The position numbers and the translations under genes are program-made. From sequence record NC_031047.1: a stretch of 64,000 nucleotides of DNA; one strand, 5' to 3'. Shown here piece by piece: positions 55,401 through 62,182 of this stretch. The notes beneath the pieces are model-generated. The model made no database searches and was not told where the DNA came from. It saw only the letters and a list, made by a program, of their open reading frames with translations. Source of the stretch: Escherichia phage HY03. Numbering within the stretch: the stretch's first letter is position 1; the number at the start of each line of letters is the position of its first letter.

Positions 55401-57655
55401 TTAATGTTATCAAAAGTAGTGGTGTTTCTCAGAGCTTTGACCCGCAAAAAATTATTAAAGTTTTATCTTGGGCAGCTGAAGGAACATCAGTAGATCCTTA
55501 TGAATTATATGAAAATATTAAATCTTATCTCCGTGATGGAATGACAACTGATGATATTCAGACTATTGTCATTAAGGCTGCTGCAAATTCTATTTCAGTT
55601 GAAGAGCCTGATTACCAATATGTAGCCGCTCGCTGTTTAATGTTTGCTCTTCGTAAGCATGTTTATGGGCAGTATGAACCACGTTCATTTATTGACCATA
55701 TTTCTTATTGTGTAAATGCAGGTAAATATGACCCTGAATTGTTGTCAAAATATTCTGCAGAAGAAATTACATTTTTAGAATCAAAAATTAAGCACGAGCG
55801 GGATATGGAATTTACTTATTCCGGGGCGATGCAATTAAAAGAAAAATATCTAGTTAAAGATAAAACCACTGGTCAAATTTATGAAACTCCGCAGTTTGCA
55901 TTTATGACTATTGGAATGGCACTGCATCAAGATGAACCTGTTGATAGATTAAAACATGTTATCCGTTTTTATGAAGCAGTATCTACTCGACAGATTTCAT
56001 TGCCAACTCCTATTATGGCTGGTTGTCGTACTCCTACTCGACAGTTCAGTTCATGCGTTGTTATTGAGGCAGGAGATTCGCTGAAGTCTATCAATAAGGC
56101 TTCTGCTTCAATTGTTGAATATATCTCCAAACGAGCTGGAATCGGCATTAACGTTGGTATGATTCGTGCCGAAGGTTCTAAGATTGGCATGGGTGAAGTA
56201 CGCCATACTGGTGTTATTCCTTTTTGGAAACATTTTCAGACTGCTGTTAAATCATGCTCACAGGGTGGAATTCGTGGCGGCGCTGCTACTGCTTATTATC
56301 CTATTTGGCATTTGGAAGTTGAAAATCTTCTCGTTTTGAAAAATAACAAAGGCGTAGAAGAAAACCGCATCCGTCATATGGATTATAGTGTTCAGCTGAA
56401 TGATTTGATGATGGAACGATTCGGAAAGAATGATTATATTACTTTGTTCAGTCCGCATGAAATGGGTGGCGAGCTTTATTATTCTTATTTTAAAGACCAA
56501 GACCGTTTCCGTGAATTATACGAAGCAGCAGAAAAAGACCCTAATATTCGTAAAAAGCGTATTAAAGCCCGTGAACTATTTGAATTGCTCATGACTGAAC
56601 GTTCAGGGACAGCAAGGATTTATGTACAGTTCATTGATAATACGAATAACTATACTCCGTTTATTCGTGAAAAGGCACCTATTCGTCAGAGTAACTTGTG
56701 CTGTGAAATTGCTATTCCAACAAATGATGTGAATAGCCCTGATGCTGAAATTGGATTGTGTACTCTCTCTGCATTCGTACTGGATAATTTTGACTGGCAA
56801 GACCAAGATAAAATTAATGAATTGGCAGAAGTCCAAGTTCGTGCTCTTGATAATCTTTTGGATTACCAAGGATATCCAGTTCCTGAAGCAGAAAAAGCTA
56901 AAAAGCGTCGTAACCTCGGTGTAGGTGTTACCAACTATGCAGCTTGGCTGGCAAGTAACTTTGCTTCTTATGAAGATGCTAACGATTTAACACATGAACT
57001 ATTTGAGAGATTACAGTATGGACTCATTAAAGCATCCATTAAGCTCGCCAAAGAAAAAGGACCTTGCGAATATTATTCAGACACTCGTTGGTCTCGAGGC
57101 GAATTACCTATCGACTGGTACAATAAAAAGATTGACCAAATCGCAGCTCCAAAATACGTTTGTGACTGGTCGGCGCTGCGGGAAGACCTTAAGCTCTTTG
57201 GCATCCGTAATAGCACATTATCAGCACTTATGCCATGTGAGTCATCTTCCCAAGTTTCTAACAGTACAAATGGTATCGAGCCTCCACGTGGACCAGTCTC
57301 TGTTAAAGAATCAAAAGAGGGCTCCTTTAATCAAGTCGTGCCCAATATTGAGCATAACATAGACCTTTACGACTATACATGGAAATTAGCTAAGAAAGGT
57401 AATAAACCTTATCTTACGCAGGTAGCTATTATGCTGAAATGGGTATGTCAATCAGCTTCAGCGAATACATATTATGACCCGCAGATTTTTCCAAAAGGAA
57501 AGGTTCCAATGTCTGTAATGATTGATGACCTTTTGTATTTTTGGTATTTTGGCGGAAAAAATTTCTATTATCATAATACTCGTGATGGTTCCGGTACTGA
57601 TGATTACGAAATAGAAACTCCAAAAGCCGATGATTGCGCAGCGTGTAAATTGTAA
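55391..57655 (+). CDS. nrdA: Ribonucleotide reductase large subunit NrdA
   Basis: 754 aa; ATP-cone N-terminus; class I RNR motifs. Confidence 0.9.
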   Translation: MQLINVIKSSGVSQSFDPQKIIKVLSWAAEGTSVDPYELYENIKSYLRDGMTTDDIQTIVIKAAANSISVEEPDYQYVAARCLMFALRKHVYGQYEPRSFIDHISYCVNAGKYDPELLSKYSAEEITFLESKIKHERDMEFTYSGAMQLKEKYLVKDKTTGQIYETPQFAFMTIGMALHQDEPVDRLKHVIRFYEAVSTRQISLPTPIMAGCRTPTRQFSSCVVIEAGDSLKSINKASASIVEYISKRAGIGINVGMIRAEGSKIGMGEVRHTGVIPFWKHFQTAVKSCSQGGIRGGAATAYYPIWHLEVENLLVLKNNKGVEENRIRHMDYSVQLNDLMMERFGKNDYITLFSPHEMGGELYYSYFKDQDRFRELYEAAEKDPNIRKKRIKARELFELLMTERSGTARIYVQFIDNTNNYTPFIREKAPIRQSNLCCEIAIPTNDVNSPDAEIGLCTLSAFVLDNFDWQDQDKINELAEVQVRALDNLLDYQGYPVPEAEKAKKRRNLGVGVTNYAAWLASNFASYEDANDLTHELFERLQYGLIKASIKLAKEKGPCEYYSDTRWSRGELPIDWYNKKIDQIAAPKYVCDWSALREDLKLFGIRNSTLSALMPCESSSQVSNSTNGIEPPRGPVSVKESKEGSFNQVVPNIEHNIDLYDYTWKLAKKGNKPYLTQVAIMLKWVCQSASANTYYDPQIFPKGKVPMSVMIDDLLYFWYFGGKNFYYHNTRDGSGTDDYEIETPKADDCAACKL

Positions 57656-58296
57656 TGAATTATCAAAAAATCTATAATGACCTAATTTCCCGAGCTCAGG
57701 CTCGGGAATCTTTATCAGAATATAAAGAGACACATCATATAATCCCTAGATGTATGGGAGGTTCTGATGATAAGGAAAATTTAGTTGAATTAACAGGTAG
57801 AGAGCATTTTATAGCGCATTGGCTTTTATGTAAAATATATGACACTCCAGGATTAAAGAAAGCTTTTGGTTTAATGTGCTTGACTGGTAAAAATCGCTCA
57901 TATAAAATTTCTTCTCAACTATACGAATTAGGTAGACGACGTTTGTCTGAAGCTGCTATAGGACGTGAAGTTTCTACAGAAACCAGAGAAAAGATAAGTA
58001 GAGCTCTTAAAGGAAGGAAATTTACTAAAGAGCATTTAGCTCGCATGAGAAAACCTAAAACTGAAGAAGCTAAAAAGAATATAGCTGCTGCTAAAGTCGG
58101 CGTGCTTAATCCAATGTATGGTACAATCTCTCCAACGAGAGATGTTCCTCATACTAAAGAAACTCGCGATTTGATTTCTTTGAGAACTAAACAAGGTGCA
58201 GAGTATCCGCCGTGTCCGCATTGTGGAAAGAAAGTTAATAAAGGTAATGCTTTAAGATGGCATTATGATAAATGTAAATTTAAGGATTCTAAATGA
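57655..58296 (+). CDS. mobE: Free-standing HNH homing endonuclease (MobE-like) between nrdA and nrdB
   Basis: 213 aa; HHIIPRCMGGSDDKENLVELTGREH; CPHCGKK...WHYDKCK zinc finger. Confidence 0.7.
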   Translation: MNYQKIYNDLISRAQARESLSEYKETHHIIPRCMGGSDDKENLVELTGREHFIAHWLLCKIYDTPGLKKAFGLMCLTGKNRSYKISSQLYELGRRRLSEAAIGREVSTETREKISRALKGRKFTKEHLARMRKPKTEEAKKNIAAAKVGVLNPMYGTISPTRDVPHTKETRDLISLRTKQGAEYPPCPHCGKKVNKGNALRWHYDKCKFKDSK

Positions 58297-58968
58297 GTAC
58301 AGTTTTTAATACATCACCTGTTAATATTTTGACTGAGCCGATGTTTTTTGGTTCTGGATTGGGTTTAGCTCGATATGATATTCAACGGCATCGAGTATTT
58401 GAAGAACTTATTGAGAAGTCTTTGTCATTTTTCTGGCGTCCTGAAGAAGTAAACTTGATGATGGATGCTGCACAATTTAACAAGCTTCCTCAGTATCAGC
58501 AGAATATTTTTACTAACAACTTGAAGTATCAATCACTTCTAGATAGCATTCAGGGTCGTGCACCGTCTGCTGTACTTATGTCATTAATTTCAGACCCAAG
58601 TCTTGATACATGGGTTGCTACATGGACTTTTAGTGAAACTATTCACAGTCGTTCATATACTCATATCATGCGAAATCTTTATACTGATCCATCGAAGGTA
58701 TTTGATGAGATTGTACTAGATGAAGCTATCATGAAACGTGCTGAATCTATCGGTCGCTATTATGATGATGTTCTGACTAAAACCCGTGAATGGGAAAATG
58801 CTAAAGAATTTACAGAACTAGCTAAAGAATCTCCTGATGCTGTTTTTCGTTTAAATCGAGCTATTAAACAAGAAGCCGAAGCTAAACGAGCACTAATGAA
58901 ATCTCTTTACCTTTGCCTTCATGTAATCAATGCATTGGAAGCTATTCGTTTTTATGTATCTTTCGCGT
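58293..58968 (+). CDS. nrdB: Ribonucleotide reductase small subunit NrdB exon 1
   Basis: Ends ...EAIRFYVSFA plus the first nucleotide of a Cys codon; in-frame TAA follows. Confidence 0.8.
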
Positions 58969-59081
58969 AAAATGCGCCTTTAAGCAGTAATGCTTATCGA
59001 AAACTCCTTTAATTGCTGGAAAATCCAGAAATGGAAAACTAGCAGCCAAGGTTTTGCTTGCACCTTTAATTAGTATAATAT

Positions 59082-59089
59082 TATAAATA
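59082..59089 (+). promoter_or_regulatory. Late promoter TATAAATA upstream of the intron endonuclease ORF
   Basis: Perfect octamer about 30 nt upstream of the ORF start. Confidence 0.45.
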
Positions 59090-59119
59090 TGATGATTATA
59101 CTTTTAAGAGGATGCACAA

Positions 59120-59929
59120 TTGAATTATAGAAAAATTTGGATAGATGCTAACGGACCGATACCTAAAGATTCTGATGGAAGAACGTATGAAATCCATCAT
59201 AAAGATGGTAACCGTGAAAATAATGATTTAGATAATTTGATGTGTCTTTCTATACAGGAACATTATGATATACATTTAGCTCAAAAAGATTACCAGGCAT
59301 GTCACGCTATAAAGCTTAGAATGAAATATTCTCCTGAAGAAATTTCTGAATTAGCTTCTAAAGCTGCAAAATCTAGAGAAATCCAGGTTTTTAATATCCC
59401 TGAAGTGAGAGCTAAAAATATTGCCTCTATTAAATCTAAGATAGAAAACGGTACATTTCATCTTTTAAGTGGTGAAATACAACGTAAATCTAATTTAAAT
59501 CGGGTTGCATTAGGTATACATAATTTTCAACAAGCTGAGCATATTACAAAAGTTAAAGAACGTAATATTGCAGCTATAAAAGAAGGTACTCATGCATTTT
59601 GCGGTGGTAAAATGCAGTCAGAAACTCAGTCAAAACGAGTAAATGACGGTTCACATCATTTCTTATCAGAAGACCATAAGAAAAGAACATCAGCAAAAAC
59701 ATTAGAAATGGTTAAGAACGGGACCCATCCTGCACAAAAAGAAATCACATGTGATTTCTGTGGTCACACTGGTAAAGGTCCTGGATTTTATCTAAAACAT
59801 AATGACAGATGTAAATTAAATCCAAATAGAATTCAATTGAATTGTCCATATTGTGATAAGAAAGATTTATCACCATCAACATATAAACGATGGCACGGCG
59901 ACAATTGCAAAACAAGGTTCAACGACTAG
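59120..59929 (+). CDS. Intron-encoded HNH homing endonuclease (I-TevIII-like), TTG start
   Basis: 269 aa; EIHHKDGNRENNDLDNLMCLSIQEH HNH core; several CxxC zinc motifs. Confidence 0.75.
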   Translation: MNYRKIWIDANGPIPKDSDGRTYEIHHKDGNRENNDLDNLMCLSIQEHYDIHLAQKDYQACHAIKLRMKYSPEEISELASKAAKSREIQVFNIPEVRAKNIASIKSKIENGTFHLLSGEIQRKSNLNRVALGIHNFQQAEHITKVKERNIAAIKEGTHAFCGGKMQSETQSKRVNDGSHHFLSEDHKKRTSAKTLEMVKNGTHPAQKEITCDFCGHTGKGPGFYLKHNDRCKLNPNRIQLNCPYCDKKDLSPSTYKRWHGDNCKTRFND

Positions 59930-60064
59930 TCTTCGGACGTAGGGTCAAGCGACTCGAAATGGGGAGAATCCCTCCGGGATTGTGATATAGTCTGGACTGC
60001 ATGGTAACATGCAGCAGTTCATAAGAGAACGGGTTGAGAATTAGCGAGCTCAATCGAACATACG

Positions 60065-60567
60065 GTACCTTTAACTTCCATAAGAACATGGAAATCATGG
60101 AAGGTAATGCCAAGATTATGAAGTTCATTGCACGTGATGAGCAGCTTCACCTTAAAGGCACCCAATATATTATTCGTCAACTTCAATCCGGTACTGATGG
60201 CGATGAATGGGTTAAAATTGCTCAAGAGTGTGAACAAGAAGCAGTTGATATTTTCATGGAAGTTAACCGCCAAGAAAAAGATTGGGCAGTTCATTTATTT
60301 AAAGATGGTGATGTTCCTGGATTAAATACAAATAGCATGTGGAGCTTTATTGATTACTTAACTGTATCTCGTATGAAACAGTGCGGTCTTCCATGCCCAA
60401 TTACCGATGCTCCGGTTAAACATCCATATCCTTGGATTCGTGAATACCTTAATTCTGATAATGTTCAATCCGCGCCACAAGAAGTAGAACTGTCATCTTA
60501 CCTTGTTGCACAGATTGATAATGATGTTGATGATAAAGTTATGATGAGTTTTAAAAAATACTTTTAA
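60065..60567 (+). CDS. nrdB: Ribonucleotide reductase small subunit NrdB exon 2
   Basis: ...TFNFHKNMEIMEGNAKIMKFIARDEQLHL; RNR R2 C-terminus. Confidence 0.8.
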
Positions 60568-60571
60568 GGAG

Positions 60572-60594
60572 TGGGCCGCAAGGCCCATTTTATT
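60572..60594 (+). terminator. Hairpin tgggcc-GCAA-ggccca plus T-rich run between nrdB and denA
   Basis: Seen in sequence; may also act as a split ribosome binding site (see findings). Confidence 0.4.

Positions 60595-62182
<1,588 letters not shown>

What the first reader, a model, noticed from the sequence alone, without database searches (positions are those of the whole stretch)
58969..60064. nrdB group I intron with an intact 269-aa HNH endonuclease and its own late promoter
nrdB is interrupted by about 1096 nt. The inferred splice (exon 1 ends in U at 58968, intron ends in G at 60064) restores FYVSFA-C-TFNFHK, matching the conserved R2 sequence. The intron ORF is full length with an HNH core, uses a TTG start after AAGAGG, and is preceded by a perfect TATAAATA. 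In T4 the nrdB intron ORF is truncated, so this phage carries the intact form.
Basis: partly seen in the sequence, partly recalled or inferred. Interest (0 to 1): 0.4.

Follow-up and report, generated by a model that had tools for sequence, protein, structure and literature searches.

The report
RB3-type nrdB intron with intact I-TevIII

Summary
nrdB is split at 58968|58969 and 60064|60065 by a 1096-nt insertion. Joining the exons gives a 392-aa NrdB that is 96% identical, without gaps, to an intron-less phage allele. The insertion is the T-even nrdB group I intron (subgroup IA architecture). T4's 598-nt intron aligns with it end to end. All 71 base pairs of a P1-P9.2 model are kept in five haplotypes, four of them through compensatory changes. 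Natural ORF-less relatives score above Rfam's group I cut-off. The window's own copy scores below it, because about 850 nt sit in the P6a loop. The 269-aa ORF (59120-59929; TTG start, 8 nt after AAGAGG) is 97% identical to the biochemically characterised I-TevIII of phage RB3 and keeps all catalytic and zinc-finger residues. T4 lacks 59184-59674, a frameshifting 491-nt deletion. TATAAATA is at 59082-59089, but the motif alone is not above chance. It sits in the loop of a hairpin that sequesters the ribosome-binding site, next to a middle-promoter-like site, which is the published arrangement. Eighty-nine phage records carry the full-length ORF. Verdict: correct but already known, low interest.

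The parts
58293..58968 (+). nrdB exon 1 (codons 1-225 plus the first base of Cys226). Its last four bases, GCGU (58965-58968), form the exon strand of P1.
   Evidence: ORF list; Pfam Ribonuc_red_sm profile 9-143; alignment with intron-less fPS-90.
58969..60064 (+). Group I intron, 1096 nt, IA-type architecture. It begins AAAAUGCGC and ends in the terminal G60064.
   Evidence: T4's 598-nt intron aligns from first to last base. Rfam RF00028 partial hits at 59774-60014 (35.6 bits, E 4.6e-7) and 59014-59053. ORF-less homologues score 68.6 and 57.9 bits against a cut-off of 50. The 71-pair model is 100% paired.
58974..58977 (+). Internal guide sequence GCGC. It pairs with exon GCGU 58965-58968 (P1), with U58968-G58974 as the wobble pair at the 5' splice site.
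   Evidence: Read from the sequence; MFE fold of the ORF-less construct; invariant in 5 haplotypes.
58981..59057 (+). 5' half of the core: P2 58981-58996 (GUAA loop), P3 5' strand 59004-59008, P4 59014-59019/59039-59044, P5 59024-59035 (GAAA loop in this phage), P6 5' strand 59046-59047, P6a 5' strand 59051-59057.
   Evidence: Compensatory changes in P2 (two pairs) and P5 (one pair).
59058..59906 (+). Insertion in the P6a loop. It carries the expression signals and most of the endonuclease ORF.
   Evidence: This is the stretch absent or reduced in CE1 (304-nt intron), SG1 (420 nt) and T4 (598 nt).
59053..59079 (+). Middle-promoter-like site: MotA-box-like TTTGCTTGC (59053-59061), 12-nt spacer, -10 TATAAT (59074-59079). 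The operator-like T-GCACCTTTAA (59059-59069) copies the exon junction of the intron-less allele.
   Evidence: Sequence. fPS-2 annotates a 'predicted middle promoter' at the homologous place. Review PMC2988022 reports middle and late promoters mapped by primer extension and a putative operator. The consensus used for the MotA box is from my own knowledge.
59082..59089 (+). T4 late-promoter motif TATAAATA, in the loop of the hairpin that sequesters the ribosome-binding site.
   Evidence: Kept in RB3, T4, GBLB and S16. Degenerate in ORF-less CE1 (TATAAATG) and lost in SG1.
59059..59116 (+). RNA hairpin whose 3' arm contains the Shine-Dalgarno AAGAGG (59106-59111). Transcripts started at the late promoter would lack the 5' arm.
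   Evidence: Fold gives -17.5 kcal/mol, z = -5.5, 0 of 200 shuffles as stable. The 59095-59162 segment is unstructured. The RB3 equivalent gives -14.9 kcal/mol, z = -4.1.
59120..59929 (+). I-TevIII homing endonuclease gene: 269 aa, TTG start, TAG stop. HNH residues H26, H27, N39, H48. Zinc fingers C211-C231 and C242-C263. The last 23 nt overlap P6a 3', P6 3', J6/7 and P7 5'.
   Evidence: 262/269 identical to RB3 I-TevIII; residues; phrog_12324, 1-269/269, 636.8 bits.
59907..60064 (+). 3' half of the core: P6a 3' 59907-59913, P6 3' 59916-59917, P7 5' 59924-59928, P7.1 59929-59938 (UUCG loop), P7.2 59942-59955, P3 3' 59962-59966, P8 59967-59981, P7 3' 59988-59992, P9 59997-60014 (GUAA loop), P9.1 60017-60030, P9.2 60032-60055, terminal G 60064.
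   Evidence: Rfam alignment; fold; pair counts, with a compensatory change in P9.
60065..60570 (+). nrdB exon 2, including the stop codon TAA at 60568-60570.

Best explanation
This is the full-length ('RB3-type') version of the T-even phage nrdB group I intron.

Splicing. After transcription of nrdB, the intron RNA folds into a group I ribozyme (P1-P9.2 with the IA-specific P7.1 and P7.2). It removes itself by the usual two transesterifications, at U58968 (paired to G58974 in P1) and after G60064. This joins GCG U|GU ACC and restores Cys226 and a complete R2 protein.

Endonuclease. The loop of P6a holds an independent gene cassette for the HNH homing endonuclease I-TevIII. [quoted passage not shown] Double-strand-break repair then copies the intron into the cut allele.

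Expression control. Translation of the endonuclease is inferred to be held back until late in infection. In nrdB pre-mRNA and in middle transcripts, the Shine-Dalgarno sequence is buried in a hairpin. Transcripts begun at the TATAAATA late promoter, which lies inside that hairpin's loop, lack the 5' arm and can be translated from the TTG codon.

What is shown here: the anatomy, the homology, the conservation of the RNA structure, and the intactness of the ORF and its key residues. What is inferred from the T4 and RB3 literature: actual splicing, cleavage, homing and the timing of expression.
For: - Splice sites: the exact insertion point is fixed against the intron-less fPS-90 allele. The spliced protein is 96% identical to it without gaps and gives a single Pfam R2 domain.
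- Intron identity: megablast of 58969-60064 finds 83 phage records covering at least 80% at 89-96% identity. T4 (AF158101) matches base 1 to base 1096 over exactly 598 nt.
- Ribozyme: RF00028 scores 35.6 bits (E 4.6e-7) on the 3' core of the window. The natural ORF-less homologues CE1 and SG1 score 68.6 and 57.9 bits, above the cut-off of 50, and they share the window's core. For the 71-pair model, 100% of cells are paired against 33-41% when partners are slid, with 4 pairs changed on both sides.
- Endonuclease: 262/269 identical to RB3 I-TevIII. H26, H27, N39, H48, C211, C214, C242 and C245 are all present; these are the residues shown by mutagenesis to be needed for cleavage or for zinc and DNA binding (PMC1865063). 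phrog_12324 matches full length.
- Regulation: hairpin z = -5.5. Published mapping of middle and late promoters and of ribosome-binding-site sequestration exists for the three T4 intron ORFs (PMC2988022).
- T4 truncation: the 491-nt gap at 59184-59674, and the T4 annotation 'I-TevIII homing endonuclease (defective)'.
Against: - The window's own intron does not reach Rfam's gathering score (35.6 against 50). I attribute this to the roughly 850-nt insertion in P6a.
- The five core haplotypes are 97% identical, so covariation rests on only four pairs.
- TATAAATA is not enriched in the window (6 found against 10.6 expected).
- The protein differs from the assayed RB3 enzyme at 7 positions (D23Y, I90V, D117S, A143T, V159A, I217T, A265T), whose effects are untested.
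- This phage has a 6-nt insertion in the hairpin loop between the promoter region and the ribosome-binding site, whose effect on expression is unknown.
- No RNA or enzymatic data exist for this phage.
Confidence: 0.96

Rival explanations
1. The intron splices, but the endonuclease is no longer active or the intron no longer homes in this phage. It would be an intact-looking but functionally decaying copy, on the path that led to the T4, SG1 and CE1 versions.
For: Degenerate versions are common: T4 (598 nt), SG1 (420 nt) and CE1 (304 nt). The window has seven amino-acid differences from the assayed RB3 enzyme. It also has a 6-nt insertion in the regulatory hairpin loop.
Against: The ORF is full length, with no frameshift or stop. 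All eight residues shown by mutagenesis to be essential are present. Most of the substitutions seen here, for example Y23, recur in other full-length copies. The Shine-Dalgarno sequence, start codon, late-promoter motif and hairpin are all intact.
Confidence: 0.1
2. The splice sites lie elsewhere, shifted by one or a few bases, and the reader's junction is only one of several that keep the reading frame.
For: No RNA data exist for this phage. P1 is short (4-5 bp) and P10 is weak (2 bp), so structure alone constrains the sites only moderately.
Against: Only the 58968|60065 junction reproduces the Cys codon and the exact length of the intron-less alleles. It also places a U-G wobble at the 5' site and a G at the intron's 3' end, as group I chemistry requires. 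T4's published 598-nt intron corresponds base for base to these ends.
Confidence: 0.02
3. The ORF is expressed mainly by read-through or from the middle promoter rather than from 'its own late promoter', and the TATAAATA is a chance match in AT-rich DNA.
For: TATAAATA is not over-represented in the window. A good middle-promoter-like site lies 8 nt upstream of it, and fPS-2's annotators called only that one.
Against: The motif is conserved in all copies with an ORF and eroded in copies that lost the ORF. Its position inside the hairpin loop is exactly what the late-transcript unmasking model needs. Primer extension mapped both middle and late starts for the T4 intron ORFs (PMC2988022).
Confidence: 0.1

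Closest known systems
Phage RB3 nrdB intron and I-TevIII (Eddy and Gold 1991; Robbins et al. 2007, PMC1865063; GenBank KM606994)
   Same: Same gene and same insertion site. Same architecture: the ORF sits in the P6a loop, starts at TTG after AAGAGG, and its 3' end overlaps P7. The ORF is 269 aa and 97% identical at the protein level, with about 95% DNA identity over the intron.
   Different: 1096 nt against 1091 nt. The window has a 6-nt insertion in the loop of the ribosome-binding-site hairpin. P2 is AAGCA/UGCUU instead of AAACG/CGUUU. P5 has an extra A-U pair and a GAAA tetraloop instead of UUUAUA. P9 is of the T4 type. There are seven amino-acid substitutions.
Phage T4 nrdB intron with defective I-TevIII (AF158101)
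   Same: Same intron and splice sites. The 3' core is identical in sequence, and the promoters, hairpin and start region are the same.
   Different: T4 lacks window 59184-59674 (491 nt, frameshifting). This removes the HNH domain and leaves a 97-aa ORF with the zinc fingers only. Mobility of the T4 copy depends on MobE acting in trans (PMC2790892).
Further-eroded natural versions: Salmonella phage SG1 (420 nt) and Escherichia phage CE1 (304 nt)
   Same: Same core and same splice sites. SG1 shares the window's P2 and P5 variants and the exon base C58964.
   Different: The ORF is almost or entirely gone and the late-promoter motif is lost or degenerate. Because the insertion is short, these copies pass Rfam's group I threshold.
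T4 td intron / I-TevI and nrdD intron / I-TevII
   Same: The same logic of a phage group I intron carrying a homing endonuclease with middle and late promoters, a sequestered ribosome-binding site and a putative operator that resembles the homing site (PMC2988022).
   Different: Those enzymes are monomeric GIY-YIG proteins. I-TevIII is an HNH enzyme that cuts as a dimer and uses its zinc fingers for DNA binding (PMC1865063).

Membership tests
Group I intron (Rfam RF00028; IA-type as in the T4 introns) | 5' splice site follows a U that forms a U-G wobble with the internal guide sequence in P1 | tested here: met
   U58968-G58974, flanked by G58967-C58975, C58966-G58976 and G58965-C58977. Predicted by the MFE fold and invariant in 5 haplotypes.
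Group I intron (Rfam RF00028; IA-type as in the T4 introns) | Intron ends in G (the terminal, omega G) | tested here: met
   G60064. The boundary is fixed by alignment with an intron-less allele.
Group I intron (Rfam RF00028; IA-type as in the T4 introns) | Conserved core helices P3-P8, including the P3/P7 pseudoknot | tested here: met
   All helices were located. 71 of 71 pairs are standard in all five haplotypes, against 33-41% for slid controls. There are 4 compensatory pairs, but P3, P4, P7 and P8 are invariant and so say nothing either way. Rfam consensus stretches GUUCAACGACUA and GAUAUAGUCU are matched.
Group I intron (Rfam RF00028; IA-type as in the T4 introns) | Score at or above Rfam's gathering threshold (50 bits) | tested here: inconclusive
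   The window itself gets no hit at gathering, and 35.6 bits (E 4.6e-7) with the permissive search. T4's copy gives 35.7 bits. The ORF-less homologues with the same core score 68.6 (CE1) and 57.9 (SG1). The shortfall tracks the size of the P6a insertion.
Group I intron (Rfam RF00028; IA-type as in the T4 introns) | Extra helices P7.1 and P7.2 between P7 and P3', typical of subgroup IA | tested here: met
   P7.1 at 59929-59938 (cUUCGg loop) and P7.2 at 59942-59955, both in the MFE fold and fully paired. The assignment of these helices to subgroup IA is from my own knowledge.
Group I intron (Rfam RF00028; IA-type as in the T4 introns) | Self-splicing with guanosine cofactor | not testable with these tools
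   Known for the T4 copy from the literature (recalled, and implied in PMC1865063 and PMC2988022). Not measured for this phage.
I-TevIII (HNH homing endonuclease of the nrdB intron) | HNH catalytic motif with H26, H27, N39, H48 | tested here: met
   All four residues are present. Pfam HNH_3 scores 48.8 bits against a cut-off of 24.8. The mutagenesis is in PMC1865063.
I-TevIII (HNH homing endonuclease of the nrdB intron) | Two C-terminal CX2CX12-13HX3C zinc fingers (C211/C214 and C242/C245) | tested here: met
   CDFCGHTGKGPGFYLKHNDRC starts at residue 211 and CPYCDKKDLSPSTYKRWHGDNC at residue 242.
I-TevIII (HNH homing endonuclease of the nrdB intron) | Full-length orthology to the characterised RB3 protein, encoded at the same place in the same intron | tested here: met
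   262/269 identical with no gaps. phrog_12324 matches 1-269 of 269 at 636.8 bits. Same position in the alignment.
I-TevIII (HNH homing endonuclease of the nrdB intron) | [quoted passage not shown] | not testable with these tools
   Shown for RB3 (PMC1865063). Not measured here.
T4 late promoter | TATAAATA at about -10, no -35 element, with a late transcript start a few bases downstream | tested here: inconclusive
   The motif is present at 59082-59089 and conserved in ORF-bearing copies. It is not above chance frequency in the window. The transcript start cannot be tested here. Mapping for the T4 intron ORFs is reported in PMC2988022.

The most novel reading that the evidence does not exclude
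The most novel reading not excluded is that this copy is a fresh recombinant that records a natural homing or recombination event. Three observations point that way. The 5' core (the P2 and P5 variants) is of the SG1 type, while the 3' core is of the T4 type. Exon 1, up to 4 nt from the intron, carries the haplotype of an intron-less allele (fPS-90-like). The only intron-linked exon differences, G58967 and T60066, are the bases that pair in P1 and P10. If this reading is true, the window would give an unusually short co-conversion tract, with its end near the I-TevIII cut site. It would also be an example of exon bases co-adapted to the ribozyme travelling with the intron.
Probability: 0.35. 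Interest if true: 0.2.

Novelty: already known. Interest (0 to 1): 0.1.

Why it matters
It matters little as a discovery. [quoted passage not shown] Many of those genomes mis-annotate it as two nrdB fragments plus a 'hypothetical protein'. The practical value is in annotation. In this window nrdB should be called as one spliced gene, join(58293..58968, 60065..60570). The ORF 59120-59929 should be called I-TevIII, with a TTG start. The small natural variants (a GAAA tetraloop in P5, compensatory changes in P2, a 6-nt insertion in the regulatory hairpin loop) add a few data points to the comparative structure of a well-studied ribozyme.

Tried and rejected
- Whole-window Rfam scan at gathering thresholds found nothing. 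This was not evidence against an intron: the permissive scan and the ORF-less homologues explained the miss.
- The sigma-70 promoter and terminator scan of 58200-60700 gave no more promoter-like sites than shuffles and no terminator. It is uninformative because T4 middle and late promoters are not of that type.
- I considered that the ATG at 59112 might be the true start. It abuts the Shine-Dalgarno sequence, is out of frame, and stops after three codons (ATG CAC AAT TGA), so I rejected it. The RB3 record also uses the TTG.
- I considered a splice junction shifted by one base. It would give Gly instead of the Cys found in intron-less alleles, so I rejected it.
- I tried to read Sandegren et al. 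2005 (PMC1275590) to check whether the gene between nrdA and nrdB is hef rather than mobE. The paper is not held. By sequence the gene is an HNH MobE-like gene.
- The Pfam FlgM hit in I-TevIII residues 74-120 (26.7 bits against a cut-off of 25) falls in the linker region. I treated it as a compositional match and did not pursue it.

Full report
**1. The observation**

The region reads as the first-stage reader described.
- An ORF that starts at 58293 matches the N-terminal half of the ribonucleotide reductase small chain (Pfam PF00268, profile positions 9-143). It stops at a TAA that begins with T58968.
- A second ORF fragment, ending at 60567, matches profile positions 171-271.
- Between them lies a 269-codon ORF (59120-59929) with an HNH_3 domain at residues 4-48 (48.8 bits, cut-off 24.8).
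- Joining 58293-58968 to 60065-60570 keeps the frame and yields a 392-aa protein with ...AIRFYVSFACTFNFHKNMEIM... at the junction.
- That protein gives one uninterrupted R2 domain match (profile 9-271, 127.7 bits).
- It is 377/392 identical, without a single gap, to the NrdB of Yersinia phage fPS-90, whose gene is uninterrupted.
- In the DNA alignment the intron-less allele reads TTCGCAT|GCACC where the window reads TTCGCGT|[1096 nt]|GTACC. The boundaries 58968|58969 and 60064|60065 are therefore exact.
- A one-base shift would replace the conserved Cys by Gly.

**2. What the insertion is**

Megablast of 58969-60064 against 50,697 phage records gives these results.
- It finds 189 records, 83 of which cover at least 80% of the query at 89-96% identity.
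- Among them are RB3, RB5 and RB6, where the region is annotated as nrdB (a two-piece CDS) with I-TevIII inside.
- Phage T4 matches from query base 1 to base 1096 but over only 598 nt, the length of T4's nrdB intron. T4's ORF is annotated 'I-TevIII homing endonuclease (defective)'.

The alignment shows that T4 lacks window 59184-59674, which is 491 nt and so shifts the frame. This removes the HNH domain, as stated by Robbins et al. 2007 (PMC1865063).

The window comes from a Tequatrovirus, 95-97% identical to phages ELT1, JEP6 and SG1 over the 18 kb upstream.

**3. The ribozyme**

Rfam results:
- The whole-window scan at gathering thresholds found nothing.
- A permissive scan found RF00028 (group I intron) at 59774-60014 with 35.6 bits (E 4.6e-7), and a weak second piece at 59014-59053.
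- T4's copy behaves the same way, at 35.7 bits.

The reason is the large insertion. Two natural relatives that have lost most or all of the ORF score above the 50-bit cut-off: Escherichia phage CE1 (304-nt intron) at 68.6 bits and Salmonella phage SG1 (420 nt) at 57.9 bits. SG1's 5' core is identical to the window's.

I located every helix in the window:

| Helix | Window coordinates | Note |
|---|---|---|
| P1 | 58965-58968 with 58974-58977 | U58968-G58974 at the splice site |
| P2 | 58981-58996 | |
| P3 | 59004-59008 with 59962-59966 | |
| P4 | 59014-59019 with 59039-59044 | |
| P5 | 59024-59035 | |
| P6 | 59046-59047 with 59916-59917 | |
| P6a | 59051-59057 with 59907-59913 | |
| P7 | 59924-59928 with 59988-59992 | |
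| P7.1 | 59929-59938 | |
| P7.2 | 59942-59955 | |
| P8 | 59967-59981 | |
| P9 | 59997-60014 | |
| P9.1 | 60017-60030 | |
| P9.2 | 60032-60055 | |
| Terminal G | 60064 | |

An MFE fold of the ORF-less construct reproduces all helices except the P3/P7 pseudoknot.

I tested the model on an alignment of the five distinct core haplotypes: window, T4, RB3, SG1 and S16.
- All 354 cells of the 71 pairs are standard pairs. When the 3' partners are slid by 1-3 columns, only 33-41% are.
- Four pairs change on both sides: two in P2, one in P5 and one in P9.
- Four more pairs change on one side through G-U.
- The haplotypes are 97% identical, so this is modest covariation. The catalytic helices P3, P4, P7 and P8 are invariant and therefore uninformative.

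The ORF and its signals occupy the P6a loop (59058-59906). The last 23 nt of the ORF run through P6a 3', P6 3', J6/7 and into P7, and the TAG stop (59927-59929) spans the junction of P7 and P7.1.

**4. The endonuclease**

- The 269-aa product is 262/269 identical, without gaps, to RB3 I-TevIII.
- It matches the 269-position PHROG 12324 ('intron-like DNA endonuclease') end to end with 636.8 bits.
- The RB3 record annotates the CDS from the same TTG.
- The Shine-Dalgarno AAGAGG is at 59106-59111, 8 nt before the TTG.
- The ATG at 59112 is out of frame and stops after three codons.
- H26, H27, N39 and H48 are present. Alanine substitutions at these positions abolish cleavage but not binding. The cysteines C211, C214, C242 and C245 of the two CX2CX12-13HX3C zinc fingers, needed for zinc and DNA binding, are also present (PMC1865063).
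[quoted passage not shown] In window coordinates those cuts fall about 58952-58954.
- tblastn finds the full-length protein in 89 phage records, mostly at 95-98% identity, and truncated versions in the T4 group.

**5. Expression signals**

- TATAAATA is at 59082-59089. The motif occurs 6 times in the window against 10.6 expected, so by itself it proves nothing.
- It lies in the loop of a hairpin (59059-59116; -17.5 kcal/mol, z = -5.5, none of 200 shuffles as stable) whose 3' arm contains the Shine-Dalgarno sequence.
- An RNA starting about 59095, where a late transcript would begin, is unstructured. The RB3 hairpin behaves alike (z = -4.1).
- Upstream there is a middle-promoter-like site: TTTGCTTGC at 59053-59061, 12 nt, then TATAAT at 59074-59079. 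fPS-2's annotators called this site.
- T-GCACCTTTAA at 59059-59069 repeats the exon junction of the intron-less allele. This is the putative operator described in the review by Edgell and colleagues.
- That review states that middle and late promoters of all three T4 intron ORFs were mapped by primer extension, and that ribosome-binding-site sequestration restricts translation to late transcripts (PMC2988022).
- The late-promoter motif is kept in copies with an ORF (RB3, T4, GBLB, S16). It is degenerate in CE1 and lost in SG1.
- So 'its own late promoter' is right but incomplete.

**6. Differences from the reference copies**

Relative to RB3 and T4, the window has:
- a 6-nt insertion in the hairpin loop;
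- a P2 with two compensatory pair changes;
- a P5 with a GAAA tetraloop. This and the P2 variant are shared with SG1;
- a T4-type P9;
- seven amino-acid substitutions relative to RB3.

None of these touches a known essential element.

**7. Verdict**

The element is the RB3-type nrdB intron with I-TevIII, already described (Eddy and Gold 1991, cited in PMC1865063) and widespread in sequenced T4-like phages. Many of those records still annotate it as two nrdB fragments and a hypothetical protein.

- Novelty: already known.
- Interest: low, about 0.1.
- Splicing, cleavage, homing and late expression are inferred from T4 and RB3 experiments and were not measured for this phage.

Noticed in passing
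window 57655-58296 (+): A free-standing HNH homing-endonuclease gene (213 aa) sits between nrdA and nrdB, sharing ATGA overlaps with both. Its first 100 aa are 66% identical to RB3 MobE. The C-terminal half is unrelated to MobE: it has a NUMOD3 motif and a CX2CX13HX3C finger that resembles the second zinc finger of I-TevIII (13/28 identical). This looks like a swap of DNA-binding modules. About 35 phage records carry this version at 95% identity or more.
   Followed up: partly
window 58909-58968 (end of nrdB exon 1): In the last 60 nt of exon 1 the window differs from intron-less fPS-90 at only 2 sites, but from the RB3/T4/GBLB/CE1 intron-bearing alleles at 10 sites (58913-58937 and 58964). 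SG1, which shares the window's 5' intron variants, differs at 7 sites, all upstream of 58935. This mosaic suggests a recombination or co-conversion end point between 58934 and 58964, which spans the I-TevIII cut site.
   Followed up: partly
window 58967 and 60066: The only exon bases that separate the intron-less fPS-90 allele from the nine intron-bearing alleles compared (including the window) next to the insertion site are G58967 (A in fPS-90) and T60066 (C in fPS-90). Both are synonymous. G58967 pairs with C58975 in P1, and U60066 could pair with A58972 in a 2-bp P10. These exon bases therefore appear co-adapted to the ribozyme.
   Followed up: partly
window 59082-59095: There is a 6-nt insertion relative to RB3, T4 and GBLB in the loop of the hairpin that sequesters the ribosome-binding site (GTATAATATTATAAATATGATGATTATAC against GTATAATATAAATATGATTATAC). 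It lengthens the stem and makes the fold slightly more stable (-17.5 against -14.9 kcal/mol). S16 has a related 3-nt version.
   Followed up: partly
window 59112-59123: An out-of-frame mini-ORF, ATG CAC AAT TGA, starts right after the Shine-Dalgarno sequence, and its stop overlaps the TTG start codon of I-TevIII. It is conserved in RB3, T4 and GBLB. Any role in start-site choice is unknown.
   Followed up: no
L006 (phage CE1) 301-604 and L007 (phage SG1) 301-720: These are natural ORF-less or nearly ORF-less versions of the same intron (304 and 420 nt). They form a decay series with T4 (598 nt) and the full-length form (1089-1096 nt). In CE1 the exon 2 fragment is annotated as 'major capsid protein', an obvious annotation error.
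   Followed up: partly
window 60571-60596 and 60571/60586-61005 (+): A GC-rich hairpin, TGGGCC-GCAA-GGCCCA, followed by TTTTATT lies directly after the nrdB stop codon. fPS-2 and fPS-90 annotate a terminator at the homologous place, but the simple terminator scan did not flag it. It overlaps the start of denA (endonuclease II; GIY-YIG, phrog_1111).
   Followed up: no
phage records listed: Many GenBank T4-like genomes annotate this locus as two separate 'ribonucleotide reductase beta subunit' CDSs plus a 'hypothetical protein', rather than as one spliced nrdB with I-TevIII.
   Followed up: no
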